Shown: positions 957 to 28,097 of the stretch, piece by piece
Numbering within the stretch: position 1 is the first letter of the stretch
Layout of the letters: every line of letters begins with the position of its first letter
IMG/VR virus record: IMGVR_UViG_3300037424_000895
Coordinates: 1-55,001 of that record
Reading direction: 5' to 3' (one strand)
Origin: a virus
Taxonomy: Duplodnaviria; Caudoviricetes
Length of the DNA: 55,001 nt
Notes under the pieces: generated by a model
Databases searched by the model: none
What the model was told of the DNA's origin: nothing
Seen by the model: only the letters and a program-made list of their open reading frames with translations
Translations under genes and position numbers: made by a program

Positions 957-1255
957 CCGATGATGCCACCGTTATAGGTTACGAAGATTCGATAAGAGAT
1001 TCTCTCACCGATCGCGATCGCTTGCGGTGTTATCTCGAAGATCTCACGCGGCTCTTCAGCTTGCCAGTTGACAAACTCATCGGTTGAATTAAAGACTTTC
1101 ATCGCGATCAGGTTACGTCGTAATTTGGGCTGTTCAAGCATCTTAGATACCTCATTCAAGTCAGTTGTCTCATCGATGGTAAGAACCGTCGGAGGATTGT
1201 GGTCAATGTCAGCTTCTACAAAAGCCATCGTTGGGAGAGGGAGAGTAGTACTCAT
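953..1255 (-). CDS. Hypothetical protein
   Basis: 100-aa ORF, coupled overlaps, GAGG RBS. Confidence 0.7.
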   Translation of the reverse strand: MSTTLPLPTMAFVEADIDHNPPTVLTIDETTDLNEVSKMLEQPKLRRNLIAMKVFNSTDEFVNWQAEEPREIFEITPQAIAIGERISYRIFVTYNGGIIG

Positions 1256-1785
1256 GTATTATCTACCTCAATGATCAAATCAAACCCCTCAGACTTTGAG
1301 GGTGCAACGTATGTGTTGAACATGCTCTTCAACACGAAGGCTGGAATCACTTTACCGGTAGTCGCAGCCCTTTCGTCAAGACGTTGCTGCAAAACCTTGT
1401 CATCAACGGTAAAGTTGAGACAAATCTTGTAGTACGACTCCGGAACAACTGAGAGAACCGATGAGCGCTTCTTGCTGCCCATGTTAGTTTGATCATGGAA
1501 GATTGATCGATGAGTTCGGATCGCGTTCTCAATGTTCTCATTCATTTCGCGATTGATCTTCTTCTGATTTACCTTGTGGAAGGCTTCAGAGTAAGTCAGG
1601 CCCATCTTTATGGCTTCAACCTCGATCAAGTCATCAGTTGAAGCAATGTAGAACTTCTCAGTTAACAGTGGGGTGAACTTCTTCAGAAAAGTGGACTTAC
1701 CTACACCGGGAACACCTACCATCACGACATAAGATGGAGATTGCCACTTTTGGAGCAGATGTTGGAGAGCAATAGAAGTTTTCAT
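1252..1785 (-). CDS. P-loop kinase, polynucleotide-kinase/AAA_33-like
   Basis: Walker A GVPGVGKST, STDD, DQTN and R-x3-R lid, typical of the PNK kinase domain. Confidence 0.8.
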   Translation of the reverse strand: MKTSIALQHLLQKWQSPSYVVMVGVPGVGKSTFLKKFTPLLTEKFYIASTDDLIEVEAIKMGLTYSEAFHKVNQKKINREMNENIENAIRTHRSIFHDQTNMGSKKRSSVLSVVPESYYKICLNFTVDDKVLQQRLDERAATTGKVIPAFVLKSMFNTYVAPSKSEGFDLIIEVDNT

Positions 1786-17230: not shown

Positions 17231-17315
17231 TGGTGCGTCTGGGGAGACTCGAACTCCCAACCCTTTCGGGACATGGACCTCAACCATGCGCGTATACCAA
17301 TTCCGCCACAAACGC
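17231..17315 (-). tRNA. tRNA-Leu(GAG)
   Basis: Type II cloverleaf, CATGG-TTGAGGT-CCATG, encoded CCA. Confidence 0.92.
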
Positions 17316-17323
17316 GTTACGCA

Positions 17324-17521
17324 CTACTCTACCTTCAAGCATTGAGCGGTATAGAAGACGGTTGTCTCAGACTCATAAGAACCGCTGTACTTTACCGATC
17401 GATTGTGAACACCTGAGCTATACTGCTTCTCATAGTGTCTACAATCAACTTCACTCATCGGGATCTGTTGAGAAGAAACCCCGTTACTTACAATGATCGT
17501 CAAGATCAATATCCACTTCAT
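17324..17521 (-). CDS. Small protein with a signal peptide
   Basis: MKWILILTIIV N-terminus. Confidence 0.6.
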   Translation of the reverse strand: MKWILILTIIVSNGVSSQQIPMSEVDCRHYEKQYSSGVHNRSVKYSGSYESETTVFYTAQCLKVE

Positions 17522-17544
17522 GATATGCTTTCATGTATTATCCA

Positions 17545-17670
17545 GGATGACGCGGGTGGAATCGAACCACCGTACCCTCCATAGTCACCGATCTCTCAGC
17601 TAAGTCGGAATCGAACCGACAGTCTCCGAACCTCTTCAGGTCGTGCCTACCCCAACGTAGGACCGCGTCA
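17545..17670 (-). ncRNA. tRNA-like RNA with two T-arms
   Basis: Acceptor TGACGCG/CGCGTCA; GTCGG-TTCGATT-CCGAC and GGTGG-TTCGATT-CCACC. Confidence 0.7.
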
Positions 17671-17678
17671 AAGCAACT

Positions 17679-17918
17679 TCAAAATATTGCTACTGCTAAC
17701 AGCGTAATTCCTATTCCAAAGAGAAAAGATATCACTGCGACGATCAGGTTCACCAACAATAGCTTCGTGTAGAAGAAGTTGCTGATGATTCCAACCGCTT
17801 CTTCACGAATGATGGGAGCTGCTTCCTTAGCTAGCTTAACGGCCGTGTCTTTCATGCTGTCACTCGTATTGGTCAAGAATCGTTTACGGAAGTCGTTGGT
17901 AAGGACTTTGTTAGTCAT
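17679..17918 (-). CDS. Membrane protein
   Basis: C-terminal TM segment. Confidence 0.65.
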   Translation of the reverse strand: MTNKVLTNDFRKRFLTNTSDSMKDTAVKLAKEAAPIIREEAVGIISNFFYTKLLLVNLIVAVISFLFGIGITLLAVAIF

Positions 17919-17929
17919 GATCTTTCTTT

Positions 17930-18367
17930 CTATCTATGCTGCGGTTCCGGCTGGTTTCCATCCAAATGGATGGGACAATTTGCTGCGTGAATTTTGTACG
18001 GTGTTCCGAGACGTTCGGCGTTGTCCATTTTTGGACATGTACAGCCTGGAAAGTCAAAGAACCTGTGATGATTTGGATCTACCGGGAAGTTCCACAGTCG
18101 TTGTTGCTCATTCTCTAGAGCATCGAAAGTCGAAGCAAGCAACTTTAGCTTCAGAGGTTCATCGAGAACTTTCTTTGCAGCTTCGAACAGTTCCCATCGC
18201 AGTTGGTGGGACAGTTTTAGTGCCTCAAGTTGGTCGTCGGTAACTTTCTGCCTAGCCGCCAAAGCTGAATTTAGCACGGTGATGATCGTCTTGCCATCAG
18301 GGGCATACACGATGTATTTTCCCAATCCCATCTTTAGCAGATTTTGCTCGATGTTGTTCTCAGACAT
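17930..18367 (-). CDS. Hypothetical phage protein
   Basis: QQRLWNFP...GCTCPKMDN...CPIH Cys/His motif. Confidence 0.75.
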   Translation of the reverse strand: MSENNIEQNLLKMGLGKYIVYAPDGKTIITVLNSALAARQKVTDDQLEALKLSHQLRWELFEAAKKVLDEPLKLKLLASTFDALENEQQRLWNFPVDPNHHRFFDFPGCTCPKMDNAERLGTPYKIHAANCPIHLDGNQPEPQHR

Positions 18368-18389
18368 TTTGGAGTACCAGATAAAGAAA

Positions 18390-18463
18390 GGAGGGCTAGC
18401 AGGGAATCGAACCCCGGTTCATGGTCTTGGATGACCATCATTCTGCCATTGAATTACCAGCCC
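18390..18463 (-). tRNA. Atypical tRNA with an 8-nt anticodon loop (CATCCAAG; Trp/Gly-like)
   Basis: GGGCTGG/CTAGCCC acceptor, normal D- and T-arms, ATGGT-CATCCAAG-ACCAT. Confidence 0.65.
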
Positions 18464-18465
18464 AT

Positions 18466-18818
18466 GCTGAGGGGAGTCACCCCTCAGGTGATTCAATCCC
18501 TCGCGAATCCACAGGTGGAACGTTGGATTCGTGTATCGTCGCCGTGATAAGTAACATGAACTTGATCGCCCATGTAACCTCTACGAAGGCGCTGCTTTCT
18601 CGGCTCCTCGTGTGTACCTAGTAGTATTGCCAAGCGTTCCCGCTGTACCACAAGAGAAGTTGCGCGTTACAACTTCTCAAGGACCTTGGCTAGGTAGCCT
18701 ATAGCTCAACTGTCGCGTACTTTCAGTAGCACGAACTACTACAACATTCTAGGGTCCGAGCCTAGCGATGGACGCGTCAAGAATGAACCGGCCGATTCAT
18801 CCTCTATAACCGTCATGT
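18466..18818 (-). ncRNA. Candidate structured ncRNA between tRNAs
   Basis: ~350 nt, no credible ORF, several hairpins (CTGAGGGG/CCCCTCAG, GAGAAGTTG/CAACTTCTC, GAATCCA/TGGATTC). Confidence 0.55.
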
Positions 18819-18820
18819 TG

Positions 18821-18904
18821 GGTGCGAGATGAGGGACTCGAACCCTCACACCTTTCGGCGCTGGCTTCTAAGGCCAGTGCGTCTACCAATTCCGCCAACC
18901 TCGC
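18821..18904 (-). tRNA. tRNA-Leu(TAG)
   Basis: CTGGC-CTTAGAA-GCCAG, type II cloverleaf. Confidence 0.92.
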
Positions 18905-18907
18905 ATA

Positions 18908-19298
18908 CTTTGATACACCCCATTGCGCTCTCTTTCAAGTTCACACAATCAAAAGTTAACCTTGACTCAGGCTCTTGAACACTTCCGCGGTTCAAATTAC
19001 GTCCTATCCCTAGCAGTGACGTTATCTCTGCATTACCCGCCGGTACGGAATATCCACCGGAATCAATAGGCTGTGAACTAAGTTCCAGCTGTCACCTGAA
19101 GTGACCCGCGAATCTCAAGGACAGTCCTCGGTTATTTGTTCCCGAGGCACTGCCATGAGCCAGATCCTTCGCAGTAGGACCGGGTTTGTCTAACGATACG
19201 GCGATGCTCTTTACCTCGGCTTCGTATTACTTCCTAGGGAGCAACAGAGGATCGTTCAGGCTCTACCGTCTCAGCTAAGTCCCTTTCAGGCATCGTTA
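18908..19298 (-). ncRNA. Candidate structured ncRNA between tRNAs
   Basis: ~390 nt; closed domain TAACGAT...ATCGTTA, CCTCGG/CCGAGG, GTCAC/GTGAC, TTTGAT/ATCAAA. Confidence 0.55.
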
Positions 19299-19299
19299 C

Positions 19300-19385
19300 G
19301 GCAGAGGGTAACAGAATCGAACTGTCAACCATCGCTGGTTGGGACGGTTTTCAAGACCGTGTCCGCGCCATGCAGCCTACCCTCT
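19300..19385 (-). tRNA. tRNA-Ser(TGA)
   Basis: ACGGT-CTTGAAA-ACCGT, long variable arm, G73. Confidence 0.85.
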
Positions 19386-19389
19386 ATAT

Positions 19390-19615
19390 TCGGTTTCGTA
19401 TTCATCGCATGCGTTTAGCACTTTCCGTAAATCGGAGTTTAGGTTTTCACCATGCTACGATTCCTTGTAGGACTCAAGCTAACGAATACCGCTAGATCTA
19501 AAGTTTGCTAAGCAAGTAATCCACCGAAAGCTTCCTTGCTTTAAATCTCATGAGGCGACAAGATTAACGACCTTTGCTCTTATCTCTGGGACGGTCAAGC
19601 AGAGACCTCATGCTA
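19390..19615 (-). ncRNA. Candidate structured ncRNA
   Basis: No ORF; CATGAGG/CCTCATG, GTATTC/GAATAC and AGCAAG/CTTGCT stems. Confidence 0.45.
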
Positions 19616-19619
19616 GTGT

Positions 19620-19910
19620 TTAGTAATTCTCGCGAGTGATGCTAAACATCTCACGGAACTGTGTCGGTGTCAGATCAATATCCGTACCGAAGTATGTTTG
19701 CCGCAGTGTCTCGATAGACTTTCCCGGAGCAAGCTGTTCGATCAGCTTGGTCAGTTCAGCAGATTCACCAGCAATCAGCAACTTGATCATCTTCAGGAGA
19801 TCATTTGCTTCACCTACGGTCAAACAGCGTTTTGGACCGAATACATTTTTTGTGCAACGCTTGCCTTCAGGTGTGTACAGTTGCAGAACAGAAATGTACC
19901 AGAATTTCAA
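19620..19910 (-). CDS. Hypothetical early protein
   Basis: AAGGAG RBS; early promoter at 19964-19992. Confidence 0.7.
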   Translation of the reverse strand: MKFWYISVLQLYTPEGKRCTKNVFGPKRCLTVGEANDLLKMIKLLIAGESAELTKLIEQLAPGKSIETLRQTYFGTDIDLTPTQFREMFSITRENY

Positions 19911-19992
19911 CTTGTTCTCCTTTGCTTATAAATATCTGACGGATTCAAATATTTGATAAAGTCATTATATCACAGTACTTAAGAAAGTAAAC

Positions 19993-20649
19993 ATGAAAGT
20001 TAATTCTTTTTTCTACACTCACAATAACTTCACAGCTACCGATAGAACTCCGTTTACATATGTCATTCGTTGGAAAAAGACCAACGACATCTACTACGGC
20101 GTCAAGTTTGCAAAAGGCTGTCTTCCATCAGACCTTGGAACAACTTACTTTTCAAGCTCTAGCAGAATTAGAAATTTAATTAAGCAACACGGGGCTGAGA
20201 ACTTTGACTTTGAAGTTCGAAAAGTATTTCAAACTGTTGAAAAGGCAAGAGACTGGGAAACCAAAATTCTTACAAAGTTTCTTGAAAAGCCAAAATTTCT
20301 TAATAAGCACAAGAACGACGGATTCTGCAAGATAGACAACGCTGGAATTCGAAACCCTAGATATGGTACAATTTCAAATAAAGGCAGCCGTTGGTCTCTT
20401 TCAGAAGAAACAAAGCAAAAGATGAGAAAACCAAAGACCAAAGAACATGCTCAGAATGCAGCAAGAGCTAAGATCGGCAAAAGTGTATACCCTTCAGAAG
20501 AGACGAAGAAGAAAATGTCAATCTCTGGGAAAGCTAGAGTCAAAAATATAGTAACTTGTCCTCACTGTGGAAAAATAGGATTTGACAGAGGAATGACAAG
20601 ATATCACTTTGACAACTGCAAGACATTGAAACAACCTAAGATAGACTAG
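19993..20649 (+). mobile_element. GIY-YIG (Seg-like) homing endonuclease, antisense to the tRNA array
   Basis: FTYVI...IYYG, YFSSS, conserved E and N, SEETK.KM NUMOD3 repeats, CPHC; TATAAATA at 19927-19934. Confidence 0.85.
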
Positions 20650-20718
20650 AGTAGGACTTGAACCTACTTTCGCTTACCGAGATGTTTCACTCTGCGTTTT
20701 CCATTACGGGTCTAGTCT
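20642..20718 (-). ncRNA. tRNA-like RNA lacking a canonical anticodon arm
   Basis: AGACTAGA/TCTAGTCT stem, GTAGG-TTCAAGT-CCTAC T-arm, GTGAAAC-capped middle arm. Confidence 0.55.
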
Positions 20719-20719
20719 C

Positions 20720-20809
20720 GGTGGGTGCTGTAGGATTCGAACCTACGTTAGCTCCGCAGAGCCCTGGGGTTAATGCCCCAGTCGGAATCTCCAACTCCAT
20801 CGTACACCC
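20720..20809 (-). tRNA. Atypical type II (Tyr-like body) tRNA with a 6/8-nt anticodon loop (CATTAA)
   Basis: CTGGGG-CATTAA-CCCCAG, variable arm GGCTC/GAGCT, A73. Confidence 0.6.
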
Positions 20810-20895
20810 GGTGCGCGATGTCGGACTCGAACCGACACGCCCCTGAGGACCCGGACTTCTAAGGACCGGAAGACTACCAATTCCATCAATCGCGC
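20810..20895 (-). tRNA. tRNA-Leu(TAG), slightly degenerate
   Basis: CGGTC-CTTAGAA-GTCCG. Confidence 0.8.
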
Positions 20896-20986
20896 GGCGG
20901 AAGAATACGGAATCGAACCGTAAGCAGGTGTTATCCTGCTCGAGCTGCTTTCCAAGCAGACCTCAGCCCAGCTGAGTTAATCTTCC
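20896..20986 (-). tRNA. tRNA-Ser(GGA)
   Basis: CTGC-TTGGAAA-GCAG, long variable arm, G73. Confidence 0.88.
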
Positions 20987-21116
20987 ATGTGTTACTTGAT
21001 TACTTTTTCGTAGATCCTAACCGGAAGAACGATCGGGAACAGACATCCCAAGATAAAGTATGCCCACATCGTGTACAACCAGTTTGGCCATCCGTGCATG
21101 TTGATCTCCTTTAAAT

Positions 21117-21190
21117 TGGTGGACGTGACCGGAATCGAACCGACCAGGCTGCGTGGGTTTCACACAGAGCCTCCTGCCAGGCAGACGCCC
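21117..21190 (-). ncRNA. tRNA-like RNA ending in ACCA with no anticodon loop
   Basis: GGGCGT/ACGTCC acceptor, TTCGATT T-loop, long AGGCT...AGCCT arm capped by TGAAAC. Confidence 0.6.
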
Positions 21191-21193
21191 ATT

Positions 21194-21278
21194 TGGTGCC
21201 TCGAGAGGGACTCGAACCCTCAAGCCCTACGGGCGACGGATTTTAAGTCCGTTGCGTATACCATTCCACCACCGAGGC
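21194..21278 (-). tRNA. tRNA-Leu(TAA)
   Basis: ACGGA-CTTAAAA-TCCGT, type II, CCA. Confidence 0.93.
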
Positions 21279-21289
21279 ATTGTACTACC

Positions 21290-21343
21290 GGTGCGCATGG
21301 AGAGACTCGAACTCCCACGCCCTTTCGGACCCGAGATTCTTAG
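21290..21343 (-). pseudogene. 3' half of tRNA-Leu (apparent AAG anticodon); 5' half missing
   Basis: CTAAGAA-TCTCG, variable arm, T-arm and CATGCGC-ACC present; no D-arm or 5' acceptor strand. Confidence 0.7.
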
Positions 21344-21357
21344 AACTACCACAAATT

Positions 21358-21440
21358 TGGTACCAGCGGAGGGATTCGAACCCTCAATGGACTGAGCTCT
21401 CGACCCAGTAACTTTACCAATTCGTACTATCCACGCTGGC
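21358..21440 (-). tRNA. Atypical tRNA-Leu(GAG)-like with an extended acceptor-D connector
   Basis: GCCAGCG-TGGATAG...CTGGG-TCGAGAG-CTCAG-TCCATT; ACCA. Confidence 0.65.
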
Positions 21441-21450
21441 ATTTCTCTTG

Positions 21451-22020
21451 TTACTTATTGCTTCTGATATCTCTCATTTGCTCTGCTAGCGCCTTAAGTC
21501 GTTTGAACGACGTCGGTAAGCAGTTGTCAGGAACATCTGCAGCCTGTTCGACGACCAATGCAGCAAGTTCTCCAAACATCAAAACTGGGAGGTGTGTCTT
21601 CCGCATCATCTCGTCATGCTTTACATCAGTGATCTTGACACCGTCGATCTCAGTCACGATCTCATTGCAGATTTTCTGAAACATCTCGATGACTTCTTCA
21701 CTACCGGTAGAAGTATGTAAGACCTTCAGTGATAAGGTGACTGGGATACATCCAATGTTTGGACCCAACAGCCCAAAGGAAGGCAGAACCTGTATCGTGA
21801 CTCATACTGTGTTCGCGAATCTCTGAACTGAACAGATGTTCACGAGATGCTGTCCTACATGTTTTGCTGCTACTTCATCAAATGCAGAAACAGGAACCGA
21901 GAGAATCACCACGTCTGCTTCGTCTGAGTTCATTTCTGGAAGAATCTCAACATGAGGGGCAAGCTCTCTTGTTAGAAATGTACCGAAGACTCCTGAGCTG
22001 CCGATGATTGCAACTTTCAT
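21451..22020 (-). pseudogene. tyrA: Prephenate-dehydrogenase (TyrA)-like gene interrupted by an in-frame TGA
   Basis: MKVAIIGSSGVFG Rossmann start, DVVILSVP, CSVQ, xxGP, HDEMM; both ORFs in the same frame, separated by TGA at 21802-21804. Confidence 0.65.
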
Positions 22021-22045
22021 GTTAAGCTCCTGTTTAGTATAAAGA

Positions 22046-22122
22046 TGGTACCCCCGGAGGGACTCGAACCCTCAAAATCTACCTTCTGAAGATAGCATGT
22101 ATACCAATTCCATCACAAGGGC
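22046..22122 (-). tRNA. tRNA-Leu(CAG), short variable loop
   Basis: CTATC-TTCAGAA-GGTAG, ACCA. Confidence 0.88.
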
Positions 22123-22135
22123 ATTTACAAACTAC

Positions 22136-22237
22136 TGGCGGGCCTGCAGGGAATCGAACCCCGCTCAACGGTTTTCCGATGTACCCTCTTTGGAAGGCAC
22201 ATTGGAGACCGCTATATTACCGATATACGACAGACCC
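22136..22237 (-). tRNA. tRNA-Trp(CCA) with a 28-nt insertion after position 37
   Basis: GCGGT-CTCCAA-[28 nt]-A-ACCGT; otherwise canonical, G73-CCA. Confidence 0.8.
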
Positions 22238-22356
22238 GTTGTTACTTTGGGTGACGCAACGAATTGCGTCAATTCTTAGCAGCATAAGTATCTTGCTGCG
22301 TGTGACAATTTGGACATAAGAATCGCAGATTTTCCAATCGATGGTAGGAGTTCAAT

Positions 22357-22440
22357 TGGTGCCCTCGGTCGGATTCGAACCAACAAGAACTGCAGATTTT
22401 AAATCTGCTGGCTGTACCAATTTACCTTAGTCACGAGGGC
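22357..22440 (-). tRNA. Atypical tRNA-Leu(TAA) with an extended connector
   Basis: GCCCTCG-TGACTAA-GGT...GCAGA-TTTAAAA-TCTGC-AGTTCTT; ACCA. Confidence 0.8.
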
Positions 22441-22514
22441 GGCAGTTCATAGAGGAATCGAACCCCTGAGTGGAGATTTGGAGGCTCCCATGTTACCAAC
22501 TACATCAATGACCC
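22441..22514 (-). tRNA. tRNA-Trp(CCA) with some mismatches
   Basis: GGAGC-CTCCAAA-TCTCC, G73. Confidence 0.75.
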
Positions 22515-22587
22515 GGAGGGAAACTACGGAATCGAACCGCAATTTTGGAGGTTGGAGCTCCACGTCTTACCACTAGACCAGTAACCC
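22515..22587 (-). tRNA. CCA-anticodon tRNA with U73 and a mismatched acceptor stem
   Basis: TGGAG-CTCCAAC-CTCCA. Confidence 0.65.
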
Positions 22588-22593
22588 ATTTGA

Positions 22594-22684
22594 TGGCGGA
22601 AGATGGCGGATTTGAACCCCCTAACCCCTTTCAGGATCAAACAGCTTTCAAGGCTGTGCTGCTCTCCAAGACAGTAGATCTTCC
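22594..22684 (-). tRNA. tRNA-Ser(TGA)
   Basis: ACAGC-CTTGAAA-GCTGT, long variable arm, GCCA. Confidence 0.88.
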
Positions 22685-22771
22685 GGCTGAAGTTAAGAGA
22701 ATCGAACTCTCGTCCCTTTCGGGACGGCAACGGTTTTCGAGGCCGTTTGTACTCCATGTACGCTAACTTCC
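22685..22771 (-). tRNA. tRNA-Ser(CGA)
   Basis: ACGGC-CTCGAAA-ACCGT, long variable arm. Confidence 0.82.
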
Positions 22772-22773
22772 AA

Positions 22774-22859
22774 TGGTGGATGCCGAAAGATTCGAACTTT
22801 CTCAGCCAGTGGCAGAAGATTTACAGTCTTCCGAGACTCTCCAACGTCCCCGCGCATCC
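22774..22859 (-). tRNA. tRNA-Tyr(GTA)
   Basis: GAAGA-CTGTAAA-TCTTC, ACCA. Confidence 0.88.
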
Positions 22860-22860
22860 G

Positions 22861-23412
22861 TTACTTGTTGTAAAAGTCCTTCCAATTTGGAAGTTGAATC
22901 AATAAACTTTTACTCGAGAGAGTTTCTCTCTCATATTTCTTTTCACTGTGAATAATTCTATGATGATTTGGGCAAACATAGATCAAATTTGAAATTTCAT
23001 TTGTACCGCCGTTGCTCTTTTCAACAATGTGATGAACATCACCAATAGATTCATTCCATCCACAAATTGCACATCCAATTTTAGCTCTCTTAAAGATTTT
23101 AGAAATTGTTCTTGATGATAAATCCATCAACGAAACAGAACCTTCTTTAAAATGAACTACTTTTCTTTTGCAGTTATCACATACTATTTTTCTACCATTT
23201 TTAATTTTCTTCTTTTGAAAAGAAGTATTGCAATTTACACAAACATAATTAAAAATGACTTCTCTCTCAGGATATTGTCTCCCAGAAAGTTTCTTACTTA
23301 TTTTGTCTAAGGTTTCTTTGCTATGAACTCTTTGGTTTGCGCAAAATCTAGAACAAAATTTACCGCTTCCAAAACTTCCATCATTCTCTTTTCCACATCT
23401 TAAACAAATCAT
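22861..23412 (-). mobile_element. HNH homing endonuclease between two tRNA-Tyr genes
   Basis: CAICGW...DVHHI...GGTNEISNLIYVCPNHH; AT-rich; TATAAATA at 23437-23444. Confidence 0.88.
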
Positions 23413-23461
23413 TTGAGTCCTCTTTGACTAAAAATTTATTTATAGTCTAAGTGAATTCGAT

Positions 23462-23552
23462 TGGTGGATCTCGGGTCGAGTTGAACGCCAGGCCGCGAGG
23501 GAGATGGTTTACAGCCATCCGAGAAGACCGCTTCTCCTTATTGACAAGATCC
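23462..23552 (-). tRNA. Degenerate or atypical tRNA-Tyr(GTA)
   Basis: GATGG-CTGTAAA-CCATC; 8-bp acceptor, long connector, weak T-arm; ACCA. Confidence 0.65.
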
Positions 23553-23563
23553 AATGTTACTTC

Positions 23564-23647
23564 TGGTACCCTCGACCGGATTCGAACCGGTAAGAACTCT
23601 AGTTTTTGAAACTAGTGGCTGTGCCAATTTACCTAAGTCACGAGGGC
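23564..23647 (-). tRNA. Atypical tRNA-Leu(CAA) with an extended connector
   Basis: GCCCTCG-TGACTTA-GGT...CTAGT-TTCAAAA-ACTAG-AGTTCTT; ACCA. Confidence 0.8.
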
Positions 23648-23733
23648 GGCGGAAGATTGAGGGCACGATCCCCAGACCTTTCGGTCCCAACTGTTTAGCA
23701 AACAGCGCCGTCAACCTTGACGGGTAATCTTCC
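23648..23733 (-). tRNA. tRNA-Ser(GCT)
   Basis: GCTGT-TTGCTAA-ACAGT, long variable arm, G73. Confidence 0.85.
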
Positions 23734-23747
23734 AAAGATACTACTCC

Positions 23748-23762
23748 AAATTGTCAAAGATC
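23748..23762 (-). promoter_or_regulatory. boxA-like antitermination site at the head of the tRNA array
   Basis: GATCTTTGACAATTT versus rrn boxA TGCTCTTTAACAATTT. Confidence 0.6.
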
Positions 23763-23772
23763 GTTTACTTCT

Positions 23773-23809
23773 AAAGTAACTAGGGCGATTCCTTAGAATC
23801 GCCCTAGCT
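23773..23809 (-). terminator. Attenuator terminator hairpin
   Basis: AGCTAGGGCGATTC-TAAG-GAATCGCCCTAG followed by TTACTTT. Confidence 0.75.
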
Positions 23810-23836
23810 TAAATTCTTGAACTGAAAACTTGGTAC

Positions 23837-23935
23837 TTACACCTTGTTTATTCCTTCCAAGCAGCTAGGGCTCATCGTCAGCCAATATGACGATGAGAGT
23901 AGCAAACTGAGATAAGATAACAAAGTCGTTTTCAT
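23837..23935 (-). CDS. Leader peptide MKTTLLSYLSLLLSSSYWLTMSPSCLEGINKV (putative attenuator)
   Basis: Codons 5-19 are all Leu/Ser/Tyr/Trp; contains GCCCTAGCT, complementary to the terminator 5' arm; TATAAATA at 23944-23951. Confidence 0.8.
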   Translation of the reverse strand: MKTTLLSYLSLLLSSSYWLTMSPSCLEGINKV

Positions 23936-24016
23936 GATAAAAGTATTTATAGTTGAGCAACAATTTTCAAAACCGCTGGGGAGACTTTCGTCAACAAGAT
24001 CAGCAGGTGTTCCACG

Positions 24017-24071
24017 AGGAAACATTGACGATGATTGTCAGTGTTACGTACAATCATCGTCAATGTTTCCT
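24017..24071. repeat. Perfect 22-bp inverted repeat
   Basis: AGGAAACATTGACGATGATTGT-11 nt-ACAATCATCGTCAATGTTTCCT. Confidence 0.9.
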
Positions 24072-24084
24072 TTACTGTAAGAGA

Positions 24085-24114
24085 ATTGTATCACAAACTC
24101 TTACAAAAGTAAAC
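24085..24114 (-). promoter_or_regulatory. T4-type early promoter upstream of the leader and tRNA array
   Basis: GTTTACTTTT...TGATACAAT. Confidence 0.8.
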
Positions 24115-24128
24115 ATATTTGTTGAGTT

Positions 24129-24260
24129 AGGTGACTGGGCTTGATACCAGCTATAGTTCACGGCTCTCTCGATGTCCGAGCAGGCTACCCTGTGTGCTGT
24201 CATCACACTCGAATACGTGACTACATTTACTTGACGAACCGTGTCCATCCACGGCGCACC
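24129..24260 (-). ncRNA. tRNA-like ncRNA with an expanded central domain
   Basis: GGTG/CACC ends, CCGTG-GATGGA-CACGG D-like arm, GCTGG-TATCAAGC-CCAGT T-like arm. Confidence 0.55.
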
Positions 24261-24261
24261 T

Positions 24262-24336
24262 TGGATTGTCAGGACGGACTTGAACCGTCAGCTTTCACCC
24301 TCTCGGTGGACGTGCTATCATTACACTATCTGACAA
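24262..24336 (-). ncRNA. tRNA-like RNA with a non-canonical anticodon arm
   Basis: TTGTCAG/CTGACAA-T-CCA, GACGG-TTCAAGT-CCGTC, middle loop CGAGAGG. Confidence 0.65.
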
Positions 24337-24479
24337 TGTCGCAGCTGATAATCGACTACATTGACAAACTTTATTGAGATTTACTGTCTGAGCAACTTGG
24401 AACGATCCATTCTGATACTATGGGTACTTTCAAGTTACTACTCGTTGTCTCCATCGACGATTACGATACTAACAGAAGC

Positions 24480-24508
24480 ATTATATCACAGTAGTACAAA
24501 AAGTAAAC
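24480..24508 (-). promoter_or_regulatory. T4-type early promoter
   Basis: GTTTACTTTT...TGATATAAT. Confidence 0.8.
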
Positions 24509-24515
24509 TACTTTG

Positions 24516-24791
24516 TTACGGAATACATCCTGTGACAATCACGAACGCACCCTCACGAATTGCGTCAAGAGCTTTATCAGAGGGAAACTCAGGAAGCTCA
24601 TGTACGTACCATTCATCGACTTCACCCTCAACACAGATCCTCTTGGCCAGCGCATCGATCTCGTCGGTTTCTTTCTCTGTCGTTTCTACGAGGTTGATGT
24701 ACTTGTAGTTCAAGTGACGAAGATCGCCTTCTACGATTCCGTACGTCATGCGGTTTTCACCGAACCCATCAAAGATTACTAGTGTTTTCAT
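24516..24791 (-). CDS. Hypothetical protein
   Basis: 91-aa ORF. Confidence 0.7.
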   Translation of the reverse strand: MKTLVIFDGFGENRMTYGIVEGDLRHLNYKYINLVETTEKETDEIDALAKRICVEGEVDEWYVHELPEFPSDKALDAIREGAFVIVTGCIP

Positions 24792-25018
24792 GGGCGATTA
24801 CCGATAGTCAGTGCATCATCTGCTTTTCCGCCTAACCTACAGATGATCATGCGTGTAGACACGTCAAAATCTTTCAGCATTACGGCAGCTTCACAGGTCT
24901 TTGCTTCAGCAATCAACTTATTTTGATTGCTATAGTATGAAGAAATGATAGATACGATTGATACGATTCCTGCGACGGCTACGACCACGATAAATCCAGT
25001 TAAGAGTTTGTCACTCAT
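24788..25018 (-). CDS. Membrane-anchored protein
   Basis: N-terminal TM segment. Confidence 0.7.
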   Translation of the reverse strand: MSDKLLTGFIVVVAVAGIVSIVSIISSYYSNQNKLIAEAKTCEAAVMLKDFDVSTRMIICRLGGKADDALTIGNRP

Positions 25019-25210
25019 AAATTCCCTTTCAAAAAACTTTTGTCCCAGACTTAGAACTCTTCTCCTATTACCTTACGGACTCCATCAGCGTGATCTCCAA
25101 ACAAATCTAGGTTATGTGAATGATTAAAAATCGCATACAAAGCCTGAGCGTCCTCCCGCGTCTCACAGGTAAGTTTCACACCATTGGTGTGAAACTAAGT
25201 TCTGTAACGT

Positions 25211-25579
25211 TCATTTCAGTTTCTCCTTACTAACAACATATCCAGAGTTTTCAAGCAATTCCTTAGCGGCTTTTAATTCTTCAGATTCGAAATGGCACTT
25301 ATTGTACCACTCCTTGATTATTTCTATGTGGCTATCCGCTGTATCTGGAGTGAATACAACTTTACCATTCATAAATATCACATACTCCTTGAACATTGTT
25401 TCGAAGTCTGTTTTAAAGGCATGTTCGAGATATTGGTTTTTGATATTTACCCATGCATCATAACCAGAACTCCACTTAGCCCAAACTTTATCTCCCTCGA
25501 TACGAGTGACAACCCCAGAATCGGGACAGTCTGGATTGGTGTACACAACTTTATCACCAACTTTAAATTCTTTGCTCAT
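25211..25579 (-). CDS. Hypothetical protein with a KOW/SH3-like N-terminus
   Basis: FKVGDKVVY; AGGAG RBS. Confidence 0.7.
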   Translation of the reverse strand: MSKEFKVGDKVVYTNPDCPDSGVVTRIEGDKVWAKWSSGYDAWVNIKNQYLEHAFKTDFETMFKEYVIFMNGKVVFTPDTADSHIEIIKEWYNKCHFESEELKAAKELLENSGYVVSKEKLK

Positions 25580-25597
25580 TTCCGTTTCTCCTGAAGG

Positions 25598-25852
25598 TTA
25601 GGTGTCTGCATGTGGTACAAGCCGCCTAATCCCACTCAAGCAGTGAGTTATAGCGTTCTCGTATGCTTGGTCACTGTTTTCTATAATTTCCCCAAGCCTC
25701 TCATCTTCGCAGGCACGTAAAGCAGCGTTTAAACCCCAAGCCACCCCAAACCGGAAGGCGTCAGATAGCTGGCTTGGGTTTCTGGTGTCAAGACCGTGAG
25801 CGCGTAACCCAACATCTTCTGTTGGTGTGAGAGGTACTTTATGCATACTCAT
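25598..25852 (-). CDS. Hypothetical protein
   Basis: AGGAG RBS block identical to that of the neighbouring gene. Confidence 0.7.
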   Translation of the reverse strand: MSMHKVPLTPTEDVGLRAHGLDTRNPSQLSDAFRFGVAWGLNAALRACEDERLGEIIENSDQAYENAITHCLSGIRRLVPHADT

Positions 25853-25942
25853 TTCCGTTTCTCCTGAATTTTATCCAATACCCAACCATTCTTTGACTCG
25901 GTTCTGAGCCAGTTTACAGATTCCTCCCACTTCTTTTGGAGG

Positions 25943-26125
25943 CTAGTGCCTCACGTAAGGCATATAGACCCCTACTCCATTGAATGTAGCAGCTGCATGC
26001 GCTGTGATCTGTTTCTCAGTCTTTTCAACTCCGCACTTGGGACATGCTGGAGCTTCAGCGCTGAAGCTCTGTAGCTTCTCAAACTCATGATCACATTTTG
26101 AACACTTGAATACATATAGTGGCAT
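25943..26125 (-). CDS. FmdB-family zinc-ribbon protein
   Basis: MPLYVFKCSKCDHEFE.LQ...CPKCG. Confidence 0.85.
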   Translation of the reverse strand: MPLYVFKCSKCDHEFEKLQSFSAEAPACPKCGVEKTEKQITAHAAATFNGVGVYMPYVRH

Positions 26126-26139
26126 ATTTAAACTCTCCT

Positions 26140-26180
26140 CGATGTACTTGAAGACTCTTTTGAAGTCTTCAAGTACATCG
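26140..26180. repeat. 16-bp perfect inverted repeat downstream of the early promoter at 26231-26260
   Basis: CGATGTACTTGAAGAC...GTCTTCAAGTACATCG. Confidence 0.85.
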
Positions 26181-26262
26181 GCTCACTGAAGAACCGAGTA
26201 CGATAGCCCATTGCAAGCTATGTCAAAGACATTGTATCACAATGTCTCCGGGAAGTAAACAC

Positions 26263-26478
26263 TTACTTGAAACTGCGAACTAACTTGTCGAATTCTAGCT
26301 GAGCCTTATAGGCTGGGCTGCCGACGGTATAAACTTGACCGCTGGCCTTCAGTAGGTCACGTTCGGCTTTTAGTTTACTGCCAGCACGGATGATGGCAGA
26401 TGCGTGCGCCAGTCGTGTATCGATCGTAACACGAGGCTTACGCTTGGTGGTGCGAGTACGGGAAGTAGATGTATTCAT
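26263..26478 (-). CDS. Small basic early protein
   Basis: AAGGAG RBS; promoter at 26532-26561. Confidence 0.7.
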   Translation of the reverse strand: MNTSTSRTRTTKRKPRVTIDTRLAHASAIIRAGSKLKAERDLLKASGQVYTVGSPAYKAQLEFDKLVRSFK

Positions 26479-26574
26479 GTGGGCTCCTTTGATAGTTGAC
26501 TCAAGACGAGATCATTAAACTAGGAAGTTATATTTTAACTTAAGTTGCTAGAAAAGTAAACAATTTTGTTGTAA

Positions 26575-26877
26575 TTAGAAGATGAGGTACACTGAAGATT
26601 CTGCTAATTTAACAAGAACGTCACCATGACAATTGTCAGGATAACACCAGCAACCCAAGCTCTTTCCGCGCAATGTATGAATCTGCGCCATCAGTTCTTG
26701 GTTGCCGAGTAGATAATCACGGTATCTTTTGATCACTTCGGTTCTTGTACCATCTCTCCCGATCTTGTACGGATTCTGCCAGATCGAACCGTGGAATACC
26801 TTATCCCAATAGACCATCTTTCGCCCGATGTAGACGTCATACTCGGTCCTAAGAACGTGGACGACACGAGTCTTCAT
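26575..26877 (-). CDS. DUF4326-family protein
   Basis: YDVYIGR, S.W.NPY.IG.DGTR.EVI, L.GK.LGCWC.P..CHGDVL. Confidence 0.88.
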   Translation of the reverse strand: MKTRVVHVLRTEYDVYIGRKMVYWDKVFHGSIWQNPYKIGRDGTRTEVIKRYRDYLLGNQELMAQIHTLRGKSLGCWCYPDNCHGDVLVKLAESSVYLIF

Positions 26878-28097
26878 CGGTAGAGATAAGACATGTAGAG
26901 TCCGTTCTTAGAAGCCCAAGATGAGAGAAGAGTAAGCTCGCCGTTGGTAGCTGGTCGGTTCGCAACCCCACGAGCTTGGACGATCACGCCATCTTTCGTA
27001 ACTTCAATGGTAAGCTTGCGACGTTCCATTGGAACGCCGTACTCATCCTCGACTTGTAAGAGAGACCAGATCGAAACATCTCCTCGAATGCAGCGATCTT
27101 TATATCCGTACACACAGTGACGTTGAGCATTACCCTCTTGTTGCAGAGCTTTAGCCGTCTTGATCTGACGGAATGACCAGCGAGTGTCTTTGTTGTTCGG
27201 TGTCTTGAGAGTGAAGAACGAGTCTTCCAGATCTCTTCCTTCCCAAGAAGCTTCACCCATCTCCTTAAATCGACGAAGATCATAGTGCCAATCCTTCATC
27301 TTCTTGAAGAGAGAAGCTACAGTGTACCCAGATCCTGCTAGCTCAAACTTTGGGCGAGGAATGAGAGTATACTGTCCCTTGGGTCCTTCTATTCTTTGCA
27401 CTTCATTTTCACGACGTCGGTTGTCGAGATAGTCTACGAGATCATTGATCTCACTGATCGTGATCTTTTCTTCCTTGGCGAAGAAGCGCATCGCGTGCTT
27501 CCAGAACTCGTTAAGCTTCTTTTCAACTAGCTTAGTGCGAGCTACACGAAGAGCTGACCCTTCAGATGCGCCGTCGGCTTTACAGACTGCATACACCAGG
27601 GCTTCAGGGATCGTCAGGTCATGCTTGCAGTTCAGGAAGGTGTGAGTTTCTCTCTTGGTGAAGAATTCTTTGAAGTACTCTTTGTGGAGAGATCCACCAG
27701 TGGCGACGCAGACGAACCAGAGCTCATGCTCAAAGTTACGTCTGAACGGGCGAGTGGTAACTTGCTGTCGATTTCTATTGTAATGACCACCGCCATTCTG
27801 GAACTTTGTTTCAGTGTTCCAGATGTAATTCATGAAGCTTGGTGTCTGATACTTTTGAAAGACGTGTCTAACGAGTTCAAGAGTCTGCTTGAAACGATCA
27901 GACGATTTAGTTTTCAGGATAAAGCTCTTCTCATCGCGAATGAAGAATTCACGAAAGTACAAGATACGATTGATGAGCGGTTCTTCAGGAATCTCTGCCT
28001 TTTGTTTCGCTTGCTGGTTTATTTGAGTCAGCTGATTTTGCCAAGCAGCCTTCTCAGCTTCTGCTTTAGCAACTTTTGTTTTAGTAGATCTTCCCAT
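26874..28097 (-). CDS. PcfJ-like domain protein
   Basis: L..EG..Q.HCV..Y, I.SL, LTIEV, IVQARG..NR; early promoter at 28125-28153. Confidence 0.82.
   Translation of the reverse strand: MGRSTKTKVAKAEAEKAAWQNQLTQINQQAKQKAEIPEEPLINRILYFREFFIRDEKSFILKTKSSDRFKQTLELVRHVFQKYQTPSFMNYIWNTETKFQNGGGHYNRNRQQVTTRPFRRNFEHELWFVCVATGGSLHKEYFKEFFTKRETHTFLNCKHDLTIPEALVYAVCKADGASEGSALRVARTKLVEKKLNEFWKHAMRFFAKEEKITISEINDLVDYLDNRRRENEVQRIEGPKGQYTLIPRPKFELAGSGYTVASLFKKMKDWHYDLRRFKEMGEASWEGRDLEDSFFTLKTPNNKDTRWSFRQIKTAKALQQEGNAQRHCVYGYKDRCIRGDVSIWSLLQVEDEYGVPMERRKLTIEVTKDGVIVQARGVANRPATNGELTLLSSWASKNGLYMSYLYR

What the first reader, a model, noticed from the sequence alone, without database searches (positions are those of the whole stretch)
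22136..22237. tRNA-Trp with a 28-nt intron-like insert at the canonical 37/38 position
Seen: removing 22174-22201 restores the exact arm GCGGT-CTCCAAA-ACCGT. The insert forms a hairpin that also pairs with the anticodon (CCAATGTGCCTTC/GAGGGTACATCGG), and its tip re-displays TTCCAAA. Established: 37/38 is where archaeal and eukaryotic protein-spliced introns lie, while bacterial tRNA introns are large self-splicing ones. Inference: either a protein-spliced mini-intron, possibly removed only after nuclease cleavage and repair, or an elongated-arm decoy.
Basis: partly seen in the sequence, partly recalled or inferred. Interest (0 to 1): 0.72.

Follow-up and report, generated by a model that had tools for sequence, protein, structure and literature searches.

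The report
Phage tRNA-Trp gene with hairpin insert
A giant bacteriophage carries a tryptophan tRNA gene whose anticodon loop is interrupted by a 28-base hairpin, an intron-like insert of a kind seen before in other huge phages, with no sign yet of how, or whether, it is removed.

Summary
A minus-strand tRNA-Trp(CCA) gene lies at 22136-22237. It scores 41.8 bits on Rfam tRNA (cut-off 29). ARAGORN calls it only in intron mode, with a 28-nt insert.

The insert can be placed at 35/36, 36/37 or 37/38, because AA flanks both ends. So "canonical 37/38" is one of three equal readings.

The insert folds into a 10-bp hairpin with a CAAA loop. It stacks on three pairs with U33-C34-C35, giving an 18-bp rod (arm -25 kcal/mol; 0 of 2000 insert shuffles reach that).

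Both complete relatives, a 345-kb IMG/VR phage and Ralstonia phage RsoM2USA, carry a homologous insert-less tRNA-Trp; in the 345-kb phage it lies at the syntenic spot. The insert is therefore a derived gain. One short contig from another study holds the arm plus insert with 1 mismatch in 46.

There is no bulge-helix-bulge. Neither the window nor the complete 345-kb relative encodes an EndA or RtcB homologue. The insert is far too small for a group I intron. No RNA data were available.

My leading reading is an unspliced, non-decoding tRNA-shaped RNA, either a tolerated copy or a decoy. A protein-spliced mini-intron stays open at about 0.25. Lak megaphages already have "enigmatic" tRNA introns in print, so this is a new member of a known, unexplained kind.

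The parts
22136..22237 (-). tRNA-Trp(CCA) gene with insert, 102 nt, including the encoded 3' CCA (22136-22138)
   Evidence: Rfam RF00005 41.8 bits, model 1-71; ARAGORN -i tRNA-Trp(cca) with a 28-nt intron
22202..22237 (-). 5' exon: tRNA positions 1-37 (acceptor 5' strand, D arm, anticodon stem 5' strand, C32 U33 C34 C35 A36 A37)
   Evidence: Sequence; alignment to insert-less orthologues
22174..22201 (-). 28-nt insert. It can equally be placed at 22175-22202 or 22176-22203, because AA flanks both ends
   Evidence: Exact 28-column gap against G001 and RsoM2USA tRNA-Trp; ARAGORN places it at 22176-22203
22179..22202 (-). 10-bp hairpin (A37-U plus 9 pairs inside the insert, two of them G.U) closed by the tetraloop CAAA (22189-22192)
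   Evidence: MFE and centroid folds agree; 0 of 2000 insert shuffles are as stable
22175..22177 (-). Insert bases G-G-A that pair with C35-C34-U33 (22204-22206), locking two anticodon bases in a 3-bp helix. A36 (22203) faces C (22178)
   Evidence: Folds. This pairing is not beyond chance for this composition (991 of 2000 shuffles)
22136..22173 (-). 3' exon: A38, anticodon stem 3' strand, variable loop, T arm, acceptor 3' strand, G73, CCA
   Evidence: The last 29 nt are identical to the G001 orthologue
22046..22122 (-). tRNA-Leu(CAG), 13 nt downstream of the Trp gene in the same tRNA array
   Evidence: ARAGORN; Rfam 51.9 bits
22441..22587 (-). Two tandem insert-less tRNA-Trp(CCA) paralogues (22515-22587, 22441-22514). 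Both have imperfect stems
   Evidence: ARAGORN and Rfam 51.6 and 43.5 bits; structures
18390..18463 (-). Fourth Trp-like tRNA with an 8-nt anticodon loop (read as 'tcca', or as 'cc' in a 6-nt loop). Its 3' part resembles the insert-bearing gene
   Evidence: ARAGORN; 89% identity over 27 nt; Rfam 50 bits
50687..51319 (-). ATP-dependent RNA ligase. Context only; any link to the insert is inferred
   Evidence: Pfam PF09414 9.6e-30; phrog_24030 RNA ligase 2.9e-66
1252..1785 (-). P-loop kinase of the polynucleotide-kinase type. Context only; any link to the insert is inferred
   Evidence: Pfam AAA_33; phrog_505 polynucleotide kinase; weak PDB matches to Pnkp1 and PSTK, E about 1e-4

Best explanation
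This is a lineage-specific 28-nt hairpin insertion in the anticodon loop of the phage's otherwise intact, ancestral tRNA-Trp gene.

I infer that the gene is transcribed with the surrounding tRNA array. Its ends would be processed like those of any tRNA, since the acceptor stem, T arm, G73 and CCA are all intact.

I then infer that the insert is not removed. The 102-nt product would carry an 18-bp rod in place of the anticodon stem-loop, with C34 and C35 base-paired. It could not read UGG.

On this reading it is either a disabled copy, tolerated because the array holds three more Trp-type genes, or a tRNA-body look-alike that tRNA-targeting enzymes bind but cannot process. Shown here: the gene, the insert, its derived state and its fold. 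Inferred: expression, lack of splicing, and any decoy role.
For: 1. The insert is derived and rare.
- The homologous tRNA-Trp of the complete 345-kb relative G001 lies directly upstream of the same Rossmann-fold gene. It has no insert and the same CTCCAAA loop.
- The only tRNA-Trp of Ralstonia phage RsoM2USA has none either. That makes 0 of 2 complete relatives.
- 6 of 6 IMG/VR matches to the arm pattern allowing 0-30 nt are insert-less.
- A wider IMG/VR scan for 15-45-nt inserts gave 4 hits and 0 real ones.
- Scans of metagenome and genome contigs found no other copy.

2. No known removal route fits.
- The fold shows a 1x2 loop, a 3-bp helix and a 1x1 mismatch. A bulge-helix-bulge needs two 3-nt bulges around 4 bp.
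- PF01974 (EndA) and PF01139 (RtcB) gave no match at E<=1 in the window or in the complete G001.
- No ribozyme or group I family matched at E<=1.

3. G001 has a different tRNA (Leu CAA, ARAGORN only) with a 31-nt insert of similar build. It sits on the other side of the anticodon, with mirrored site geometry. One structure-specific splicing enzyme would not fit both.

4. There is redundancy and general oddity. The window has four Trp-type genes. About 11 further tRNA-like T-arm elements lie in 17.5-23.6 kb that ARAGORN does not call. The adjacent Rossmann gene is broken by an inverted segment.
Against: 1. The insert sits in the Trp gene with the best tRNA body. It alone has a fully paired acceptor stem, G73 and an encoded CCA. 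The paralogues have U.U, G.A or C.U mismatches, U73 or an 8-nt loop. It is also the orthologue of the single tRNA-Trp of RsoM2USA. Losing it may therefore not be free.

2. A 197-nt contig from a different study (X3, record 15, depth 2.2) matches 22168-22213, the anticodon arm plus the whole insert, with 1 mismatch in 46. Its flanks do not align at 80%. If that contig is a diverged relative, the insert is under constraint or was recently transferred. That does not fit an inert scar. I could not see the contig itself.

3. A stable helix that continues the anticodon stem and hides the anticodon is what genuine tRNA introns look like.

4. The phage encodes an RNA ligase and a polynucleotide-kinase-like protein. 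These could seal cut halves.

5. No expression data of any kind were available.
Confidence: 0.45

Rival explanations
1. It is a genuine protein-spliced mini-intron. An unidentified phage or host endonuclease cuts on either side of the 3-bp helix, near 35-37 and near the 3' AA. The phage polynucleotide kinase and ATP-dependent RNA ligase then heal and seal the anticodon loop, giving a normal tRNA-Trp.
For: - The tRNA body is intact, and this is the principal Trp orthologue.
- The two possible junctions lie on opposite strands, each 3' of a short central helix. That is the same handedness as a bulge-helix-bulge.
- The insert appears nearly unchanged in a second lineage with diverged flanks (X3 record 15).
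- The window holds an RNA ligase and a Pnkp1-like kinase.
- Lak megaphages carry conserved intron-like inserts of 23-141 nt at the same region of their tRNAs. These were called 'enigmatic' and have insert-less alleles (PMC6784885: abstract, passages and Table S6).
Against: - There is no bulge-helix-bulge: 3 bp instead of 4, and no 3-nt bulges.
- No EndA or RtcB homologue is in the window or in the complete relative. No 2H enzyme is in the window.
- Bacteria have no known tRNA-splicing endonuclease (established knowledge).
- There is only one such insert in the window. The one candidate in G001 sits at another position with mirrored geometry.
- RNase III-type staggered cuts in this helix would not regenerate a 7-nt loop (my inference from the fold).
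- There are no RNA data.
Confidence: 0.25
2. It is a functional unspliced RNA. The tRNA-shaped body is recognised by a host tRNA-targeting defence nuclease or another tRNA-binding factor. The anticodon loop, the usual cleavage site, is replaced by a closed helix, so the RNA acts as a competitive decoy or sponge during infection.
For: - The tRNA body elements are intact while the anticodon is masked.
- The arm plus insert is conserved in a second lineage.
- The array looks like a set of anticodon-arm variants. It holds a Trp-type gene with an 8-nt loop, many non-canonical tRNA-like elements, and homing endonucleases.
- Phage tRNA variants are known to counter tRNA-cleaving defences. I saw the abstract of PMC10264068 in a search listing, and passages of PMC13096335 and PMC13056530.
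Against: - No decoy tRNA with a closed anticodon arm is known to me, and my searches found none.
- The 're-displayed' CCA loop is not supported by the fold.
- The insert is absent from both complete relatives, so any such role is not a clade feature.
- No host, nuclease or expression data exist.
Confidence: 0.2
3. It is an assembly or chimera artefact: the hairpin is not present in the phage DNA.
For: Run X1's contigs break at 22074 and do not cover the gene. Short palindromes can disturb assemblers.
Against: A 7183-nt contig of run X2 at depth 39 covers 22046-23000 with 0 differences. A contig from a different study carries the arm plus insert with 1 mismatch. The insert fits the alignment to the orthologues as one clean 28-column gap.
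Confidence: 0.03

Closest known systems
'Enigmatic' intron-like inserts in tRNA genes of Lak megaphages (Devoto et al. 2019, PMC6784885)
   Same: Both are huge phages of bacteria. In both, the tRNA genes are recognised only with intron-permitting settings, and the inserts lie at or next to position 37/38. Related genomes hold insert-less alleles, and the insert sequence is highly conserved where present. No mechanism is known. The paper's Table S6 lists 'possible introns' of 23-141 nt.
   Different: This is a different phage lineage; its nearest cultured relative is Ralstonia phage RsoM2USA. The tRNA is Trp rather than Tyr, Thr and others. This insert is a simple 28-nt hairpin, whereas most Lak inserts are about 80-140 nt and one may itself encode a tRNA. 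There is no homology between the inserts.
Archaeal and eukaryal protein-spliced tRNA introns (bulge-helix-bulge, EndA/Sen endonuclease, RtcB or Trl1 ligase)
   Same: The size is short. The insert extends the anticodon stem and pairs with anticodon bases. The two junctions lie on opposite strands, each 3' of a short central helix.
   Different: The central helix is 3 bp rather than 4. The flanks are 1x2 and 1x1 internal loops rather than 3-nt bulges. No EndA or RtcB was found. The host is bacterial: the relative encodes a permuted tmRNA.
Bacterial and phage group I introns in tRNA anticodon loops
   Same: They interrupt a bacterial-type tRNA gene in the anticodon loop. Intron-less alleles occur in relatives.
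   Different: Group I introns are mostly over 200 nt with a catalytic core (passage of PMC8450103). This insert is 28 nt and matches no Rfam ribozyme family.
Intervening sequences (IVS) of bacterial 23S rRNA
   Same: Both are lineage-specific extra hairpins inserted into a loop of a stable RNA in bacteria. This comparison is recalled from my own knowledge and rests on no call.
   Different: An IVS is excised by RNase III without religation, and the ribosome tolerates the break. A tRNA broken in its anticodon loop cannot decode.
Phage tRNA variants that evade or absorb host tRNA nucleases (T5 and T6 tRNA-Tyr, T5 anticodon-loop variants)
   Same: Both involve a phage tRNA array with homing endonucleases and altered anticodon or variable arms (PMC10264068, abstract in listing; PMC13096335, passages).
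   Different: Those variants remain decoding tRNAs with point changes. Here the loop is replaced by a closed helix.

Membership tests
tRNA (Rfam RF00005) | Covariance-model score above the gathering threshold over the full model | tested here: met
   41.8 bits against 29, model 1-71, with a 30-nt insertion at the anticodon loop
tRNA (Rfam RF00005) | 7-nt anticodon loop able to present the anticodon | tested here: not met
   The unspliced RNA has C34 and C35 paired in an 18-bp rod. The feature is met only if the 28 nt are removed
BHB-type protein-spliced tRNA intron | Insert in the anticodon loop at 37/38 | tested here: inconclusive
   37/38, 36/37 and 35/36 are equivalent because of the flanking AA
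BHB-type protein-spliced tRNA intron | Bulge-helix-bulge: two 3-nt bulges separated by a 4-bp helix, with the junctions inside the bulges | tested here: not met
   MFE and centroid show a 1x2 loop, 3 bp and a 1x1 mismatch. C32 cannot pair with the A opposite to give a fourth pair
BHB-type protein-spliced tRNA intron | EndA/Sen-family splicing endonuclease available | tested here: not met
   PF01974 gave 0 matches at E<=1 in the window and in the complete relative G001. The archaeal controls were found. The host genome is unknown and not testable
BHB-type protein-spliced tRNA intron | RNA ligase for the exon halves | tested here: inconclusive
   RtcB is absent. An ATP-dependent RNA ligase and a polynucleotide-kinase-like protein are present. 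Their substrates are unknown
BHB-type protein-spliced tRNA intron | Spliced mature RNA exists | not testable with these tools
   No RNA run holds the stretch
Group I self-splicing tRNA intron | Catalytic core (P3-P9), typically over 200 nt | tested here: not met
   The insert is 28 nt. No group I or other ribozyme family matched at E<=1
Lak-type 'enigmatic' phage tRNA intron (descriptive class, Devoto 2019) | Phage tRNA recognisable only when an anticodon-loop insert is allowed; insert-less allele in related genomes | tested here: met
   ARAGORN finds it only with -i. Insert-less orthologues are in G001 and RsoM2USA
Lak-type 'enigmatic' phage tRNA intron (descriptive class, Devoto 2019) | Insert sequence conserved across samples where present | tested here: inconclusive
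   One 197-nt contig of another study has 1 mismatch in 46 over the arm plus insert. The contig sequence was not seen
Bacterial Y RNA / YrlA tRNA-like RNA (partner of Ro/TROVE) | Match to Rfam Y-RNA families; ends form the Ro-binding stem | tested here: not met
   No Y-RNA family hit at E<=1 in 15000-27000, nor at gathering score in the whole window. Here the ends form an acceptor stem

The most novel reading that the evidence does not exclude
The insert is a real, protein-spliced mini-intron in a tRNA of a virus of bacteria. A nuclease unrelated to EndA cuts at a degenerate helix-loop motif, and the phage's own kinase and ligase repair enzymes reseal the loop. The phage would then keep its main tRNA-Trp in a form whose anticodon loop is hidden from host anticodon nucleases until it is matured.
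Probability: 0.2. Interest if true: 0.85.

Novelty: new member of a known kind. Interest (0 to 1): 0.45.

Why it matters
Bacteria and their viruses are thought to lack protein-dependent tRNA splicing. The only prior hint is the unexplained set of intron-like inserts in Lak megaphage tRNAs.

This window adds a second, unrelated huge-phage lineage, and the case is very clean. The insert is one 28-nt gap against two insert-less orthologues, and it sits in the best-preserved Trp tRNA of the array. That makes a compact test object. A 102-nt gene can be cloned, expressed and probed for a 74-nt product, with or without the neighbouring phage kinase and ligase.

If it is spliced, a new RNA-processing pathway in phage-infected bacteria follows. 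If it is a stable unspliced RNA, it may be a new type of tRNA decoy in the arms race over tRNA-cleaving defences. If it is neither, it shows how redundant phage tRNA arrays decay.

Tried and rejected
RNA evidence. The look-up of sequencing runs listed 5 runs, and no RNA holder was listed. Splicing and expression therefore could not be examined. X1's contigs do not cover 22210-22425. I draw nothing from that hole.

More copies of the insert.
- Exact 20-21-mers of the insert or its junctions gave 0 hits in viral contigs and 0 in genome contigs.
- The gapped tRNA-anchored pattern gave 0 hits in metagenome contigs.
- A degenerate hairpin pattern gave 0 hits in viral contigs and 14 in metagenome contigs.
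- All 14 were unrelated. 13 are copies of a long palindromic repeat family and 1 is a terminator-like hairpin, none in a tRNA. I treat the resemblance as a product of searching with a palindromic pattern.

Other searches for relatives.
- The last IMG/VR scan for any 15-45-nt insert in similar Trp tRNAs gave 4 hits. All were the pattern bridging two neighbouring tRNAs.
- The 3' half of the tRNA gave 0 hits in genome contigs, so there is no host clue.
- Megablast against GenBank phages found no match. The distant mode found only generic tRNA and HNH similarity.
- A search with the neighbouring Rossmann protein gave one further partial relative (L029) with no tRNAs nearby.
- A second conserved tRNA pattern found only G001 again.

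Ideas considered and dropped.
- RNase III plus ligase as the splicing route: a 2-nt staggered cut in this helix would leave a loop about 5 nt too long (my inference).
- The tip as a second anticodon loop: no 7-nt loop fits the helix register.
- Ro/Y-RNA link to the TROVE gene 11 kb away: no Rfam support.
- ARAGORN's large 'introns' in G001 (629 and 1177 nt): no group I match at gathering score, so they are probably joins of separate tRNA halves.

The search of earlier findings was not open.

Full report
WHAT THE WINDOW IS

The window is an IMG/VR virus record of 55,001 bases with no terminal repeats, estimated at about 15% of a genome.

Its genes are those of a huge phage of bacteria. They include NAMPT and NMNAT-Nudix NAD salvage, CoaE, ClpP, a DEAD_2-type helicase, an AAA ATPase, a TROVE/Ro-like protein, an RNA ligase, RNase H and several HNH and GIY-YIG endonucleases.

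The nearest relatives I could find are two:
- A complete 345,069-bp IMG/VR phage with direct terminal repeats, called G001 here.
- Ralstonia phage RsoM2USA, 343.8 kb, among cultured phages. Its helicase is 43.7% identical over the full length.

G001 encodes a permuted tmRNA (Rfam RF04321, 84.5 bits). The hosts of this group are therefore bacteria, not archaea.

THE OBSERVATION

The minus strand of 22136-22237 is a complete tRNA-Trp(CCA) apart from an insert in its anticodon loop. It has a 7-bp acceptor stem with one U.G, U8, A14, G18G19, a TTCGATT T-loop, G73 and an encoded CCA.

Rfam's tRNA model matches it end to end at 41.8 bits (cut-off 29). The model shows 30 nt where it has two positions, between A36 and A39. 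ARAGORN misses the gene in default mode. In intron mode it calls tRNA-Trp(cca) with a 28-nt intron.

The boundaries are not unique. The anticodon CC is followed by AA, and the insert also ends in AA before the 3' exon's AA. The insert can therefore be placed at 37/38 (22174-22201), 36/37 (22175-22202) or 35/36 (22176-22203, ARAGORN's choice). "Canonical 37/38" is allowed but not shown.

THE FOLD

The whole RNA folds at -44.8 kcal/mol (z -5.0; 0 of 200 shuffles as stable). The isolated 49-nt arm folds at -25.0 kcal/mol (z -6.7). MFE and centroid agree.

From the tRNA body outward, the arm consists of:
- the normal 5-bp anticodon stem;
- C32 unpaired, opposite two A;
- a 3-bp helix, U33-A, C34-G and C35-G;
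- an A36xC mismatch;
- a 10-bp helix, A37-U plus nine pairs inside the insert, two of them G.U;
- a CAAA tetraloop.

I ran two controls of my own.
- Shuffling only the 28 nt gives no arm as stable (0 of 2000), so the hairpin is real.
- At least two anticodon bases pair with the insert in 991 of 2000 shuffles. This is because the insert is G-rich and the anticodon is CC, so that feature alone carries no weight.

The motif TTCCAAA at the tip matches the true loop CTCCAAA at 6 of 7 positions. That happens in 470 of 20000 shuffles, which is mildly unusual. In the fold, however, UUC is paired, and no 7-nt loop is compatible with the helix register. The tip does not re-present an anticodon loop.

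THE INSERT IS A DERIVED GAIN

In G001 the homologous tRNA-Trp lies directly upstream of the same Rossmann-fold gene. It has no insert and the same CTCCAAA loop, and its last 29 nt are identical. The 27-43 pair differs on both sides (G.U against U-A).

RsoM2USA has a single tRNA-Trp. It is also homologous and insert-less. The alignment shows one clean 28-column gap. So the insert is absent from 2 of 2 complete relatives.

Wider searches found no other copy:
- 6 of 6 IMG/VR matches to the arm pattern with 0-30 nt allowed are insert-less.
- Exact junction or insert words gave nothing in IMG/VR or in GTDB genomes.
- A tRNA-anchored gapped pattern gave nothing in JGI metagenomes.
- A degenerate hairpin pattern gave nothing in IMG/VR.
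- A general scan for 15-45-nt inserts in similar Trp tRNAs gave 4 hits, none real.
- The degenerate hairpin pattern found 14 metagenome loci, all unrelated palindromes outside tRNAs.

THE ONE HINT OF A SECOND CARRIER

Logan contigs of four runs were laid on 21400-23000.
- Run X2, possibly the source sample, has a 7183-nt contig at depth 39 covering 22046-23000 without a difference.
- Run X3 is a different study. Its 197-nt contig (record 15, depth 2.2) matches 22168-22213 with one mismatch. That stretch is exactly the anticodon arm with the whole insert.
- The same contig matches the 3' end of the next tRNA-Leu 81 nt further on, against 95 nt in the window.
- Its other parts do not align at 80%.
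- Other contigs of X3 and X5 match only 22136/22141-22175. Their alignments stop at the insert boundary, just as the insert-less G001 gene does.

If record 15 is a diverged relative, 28 neutral positions would not stay this similar. The insert would then be under constraint or recently transferred. I could not see the contig, so this is suggestive only.

TESTS OF KNOWN REMOVAL ROUTES

A bulge-helix-bulge needs two 3-nt bulges separated by 4 bp. Here there is a 1x2 loop, 3 bp and a 1x1 mismatch, and C32 faces an A, so a fourth pair cannot form. The two possible junctions do lie on opposite strands, each 3' of the short helix. The handedness thus matches a BHB, but the motif does not.

- EndA (PF01974) gave no match at E<=1 in the window or in the complete G001. 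The archaeal controls were found.
- RtcB (PF01139) gave none either.
- A 2H family (PF13563) gave nothing in the window and one weak sub-threshold hit in G001.
- No group I or other ribozyme family matched. 28 nt is far below the size of bacterial tRNA group I introns (passage of PMC8450103).

The window does hold an ATP-dependent RNA ligase (PF09414 9.6e-30; phrog_24030). It also holds a P-loop kinase that weakly resembles Pnkp1 and PSTK. Sealing of cut halves is therefore conceivable, but no cutter is in sight.

CONTEXT IN THE tRNA ARRAY

The gene lies in a minus-strand array at 17.2-24.4 kb that holds Leu, Ser, Tyr and Trp tRNAs only.

In G001 the main tRNA cluster holds no Leu or Trp. It holds Ser and Tyr only as dubious ARAGORN calls. 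The syntenic second cluster supplies Leu, Ser, Tyr and Trp. So this array is part of the working set, not a dump.

It is nevertheless full of oddities.
- About 11 further T-arm-bearing tRNA-like elements in 17.5-23.6 kb go uncalled by ARAGORN.
- There are four Trp-type genes. Two have mismatched stems: 22515-22587 has two U.U and U73, and 22441-22514 has G.A and C.U. One, 18390-18463, has an 8-nt loop read as 'tcca'.
- The insert-bearing gene is the only one of the four with a fully paired acceptor stem, G73 and an encoded CCA.

In G001 the gene just upstream of tRNA-Trp is an ARAGORN-only tRNA-Leu(CAA) with a 31-nt insert. Its build is alike: stem, small loop, 3 bp, loop, 10-bp hairpin, tetraloop (z -3.4). 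Rfam does not match it at E<=1. Its insert lies 5' of the anticodon, so the junctions fall 5' of the short helix. That is the mirror image of the Trp case.

Hairpin inserts thus recur in this clade. One structure-specific splicing enzyme would not fit both.

WHAT IT MOST LIKELY IS

The insert is real, strongly structured, derived and rare, and no known splicing route fits. On that basis I put about 0.45 on an unspliced, end-processed 102-nt RNA that cannot decode. It would be a tolerated disabled copy, possibly with a decoy effect as a by-product.

I put about 0.25 on a true protein-spliced mini-intron using an unknown nuclease plus the phage kinase and ligase. Three things keep that figure high: the intact principal Trp body, the X3 contig and the Lak precedent.

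I put about 0.2 on a selected decoy role. That leans on the published arms race over tRNA-cleaving defences:
- PMC10264068, abstract in a search listing;
- PMC13096335, passages;
- PMC13056530, passages.

I put about 0.03 on an assembly artefact.

COMPARISON WITH WHAT IS KNOWN

Devoto et al. 2019 (PMC6784885; abstract, passages and Table S6 seen) reported Lak megaphage tRNAs with "enigmatic" introns. These were found by re-running tRNAscan with eukaryotic settings. They are listed as 'possible introns' of 23-141 nt starting at positions 37-41, have insert-less alleles, and are typically identical in sequence across cohorts.

That is the same descriptive class. Here it appears in a different phage lineage and a different tRNA, with a much simpler insert.

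The library covers open-access papers and bioRxiv only.

I therefore file this as a new member of a known but unexplained kind.

Noticed in passing
window 21454-22020 (-), inverted part 21710-21808: The Rossmann-fold (prephenate-dehydrogenase-like) gene just downstream of the tRNAs is broken. Compared with the intact 207-aa G001 homologue, residues 81-113 are encoded on the opposite strand (85% identity), and the minus-strand frame has a stop there. This looks like an in-place inversion of about 100 bp. Only weak flanking inverted repeats were found (16 nt, 75%).
   Followed up: partly
window 18390-18463 (-): A Trp-type tRNA has an 8-nt anticodon loop (CAUCCAAG). ARAGORN reads it either as a 2-base or as a 4-base anticodon 'tcca'. 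Such loops are typical of +1 frameshift-suppressor tRNAs. Rfam scores it at 50 bits.
   Followed up: partly
window 17500-23650 (-), and 43878-43949 (-): About 11 extra tRNA-like elements have good T arms and often an encoded CCA, yet ARAGORN does not call them. Their T arms lie near 23587, 23486, 22707, 22380, 21381, 21312, 21140, 20742, 20663, 17616 and 17567. Some are 94% identical to G001 counterparts, for example 23557-23647, a Leu-like tRNA without a long variable arm. A lone weak tRNA lies at 43878-43949 (31.1 bits).
   Followed up: partly
L027 11731-11844 (-) = G001 316730-316843: ARAGORN-only tRNA-Leu(CAA) with a 31-nt insert 5' of the anticodon. The insert forms a 10-bp hairpin with a TAAC loop. 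The gene abuts the insert-less tRNA-Trp. Rfam tRNA does not match it at E<=1.
   Followed up: partly
L025 (G001 220000-239999): 9501-9593, 11919-12012, 4883-4982: Class I tRNAs (Lys UUU, Asn GUU, Ile UAU) of 87-94 nt carry long extra variable arms. Rfam scores them well (63.6, 40.3 and 54.9 bits).
   Followed up: no
L024 2918-2993 (-) and L027 1647-1906 (-) in G001: G001 has a tRNA with anticodon CUA (amber-suppressor type; ARAGORN labels it 'Pyl'). It also has a permuted tmRNA (RF04321, 84.5 bits).
   Followed up: no
window 33005-35363 (-): A TROVE/Ro60-like RNA-binding protein (33005-34081) matches only the C-terminal two-thirds of its profiles. It is followed upstream by an HNH endonuclease ORF (34017-34682) and a 214-aa ORF without matches (34719-35363). 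The Ro gene may be split by a homing-endonuclease insertion. No Y-RNA family was found in the window.
   Followed up: no
G001 main cluster (about 223-241 kb) against second cluster (about 313-319 kb); window 17.2-24.4 kb: The two tRNA clusters divide the amino acids between them. Leu, Ser, Tyr and Trp tRNAs are confined to the second cluster, which is interspersed with HNH and GIY-YIG endonuclease genes. RsoM2USA has a similar Leu/Ser/Tyr/Trp-rich stretch.
   Followed up: partly
L010-L015, L017-L023 (metagenome contigs): A long palindromic repeat family is present in many copies in a few metagenomes. Its central hairpin resembles the tRNA insert only because the search pattern forced that resemblance. 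It has no link to tRNAs.
   Followed up: no
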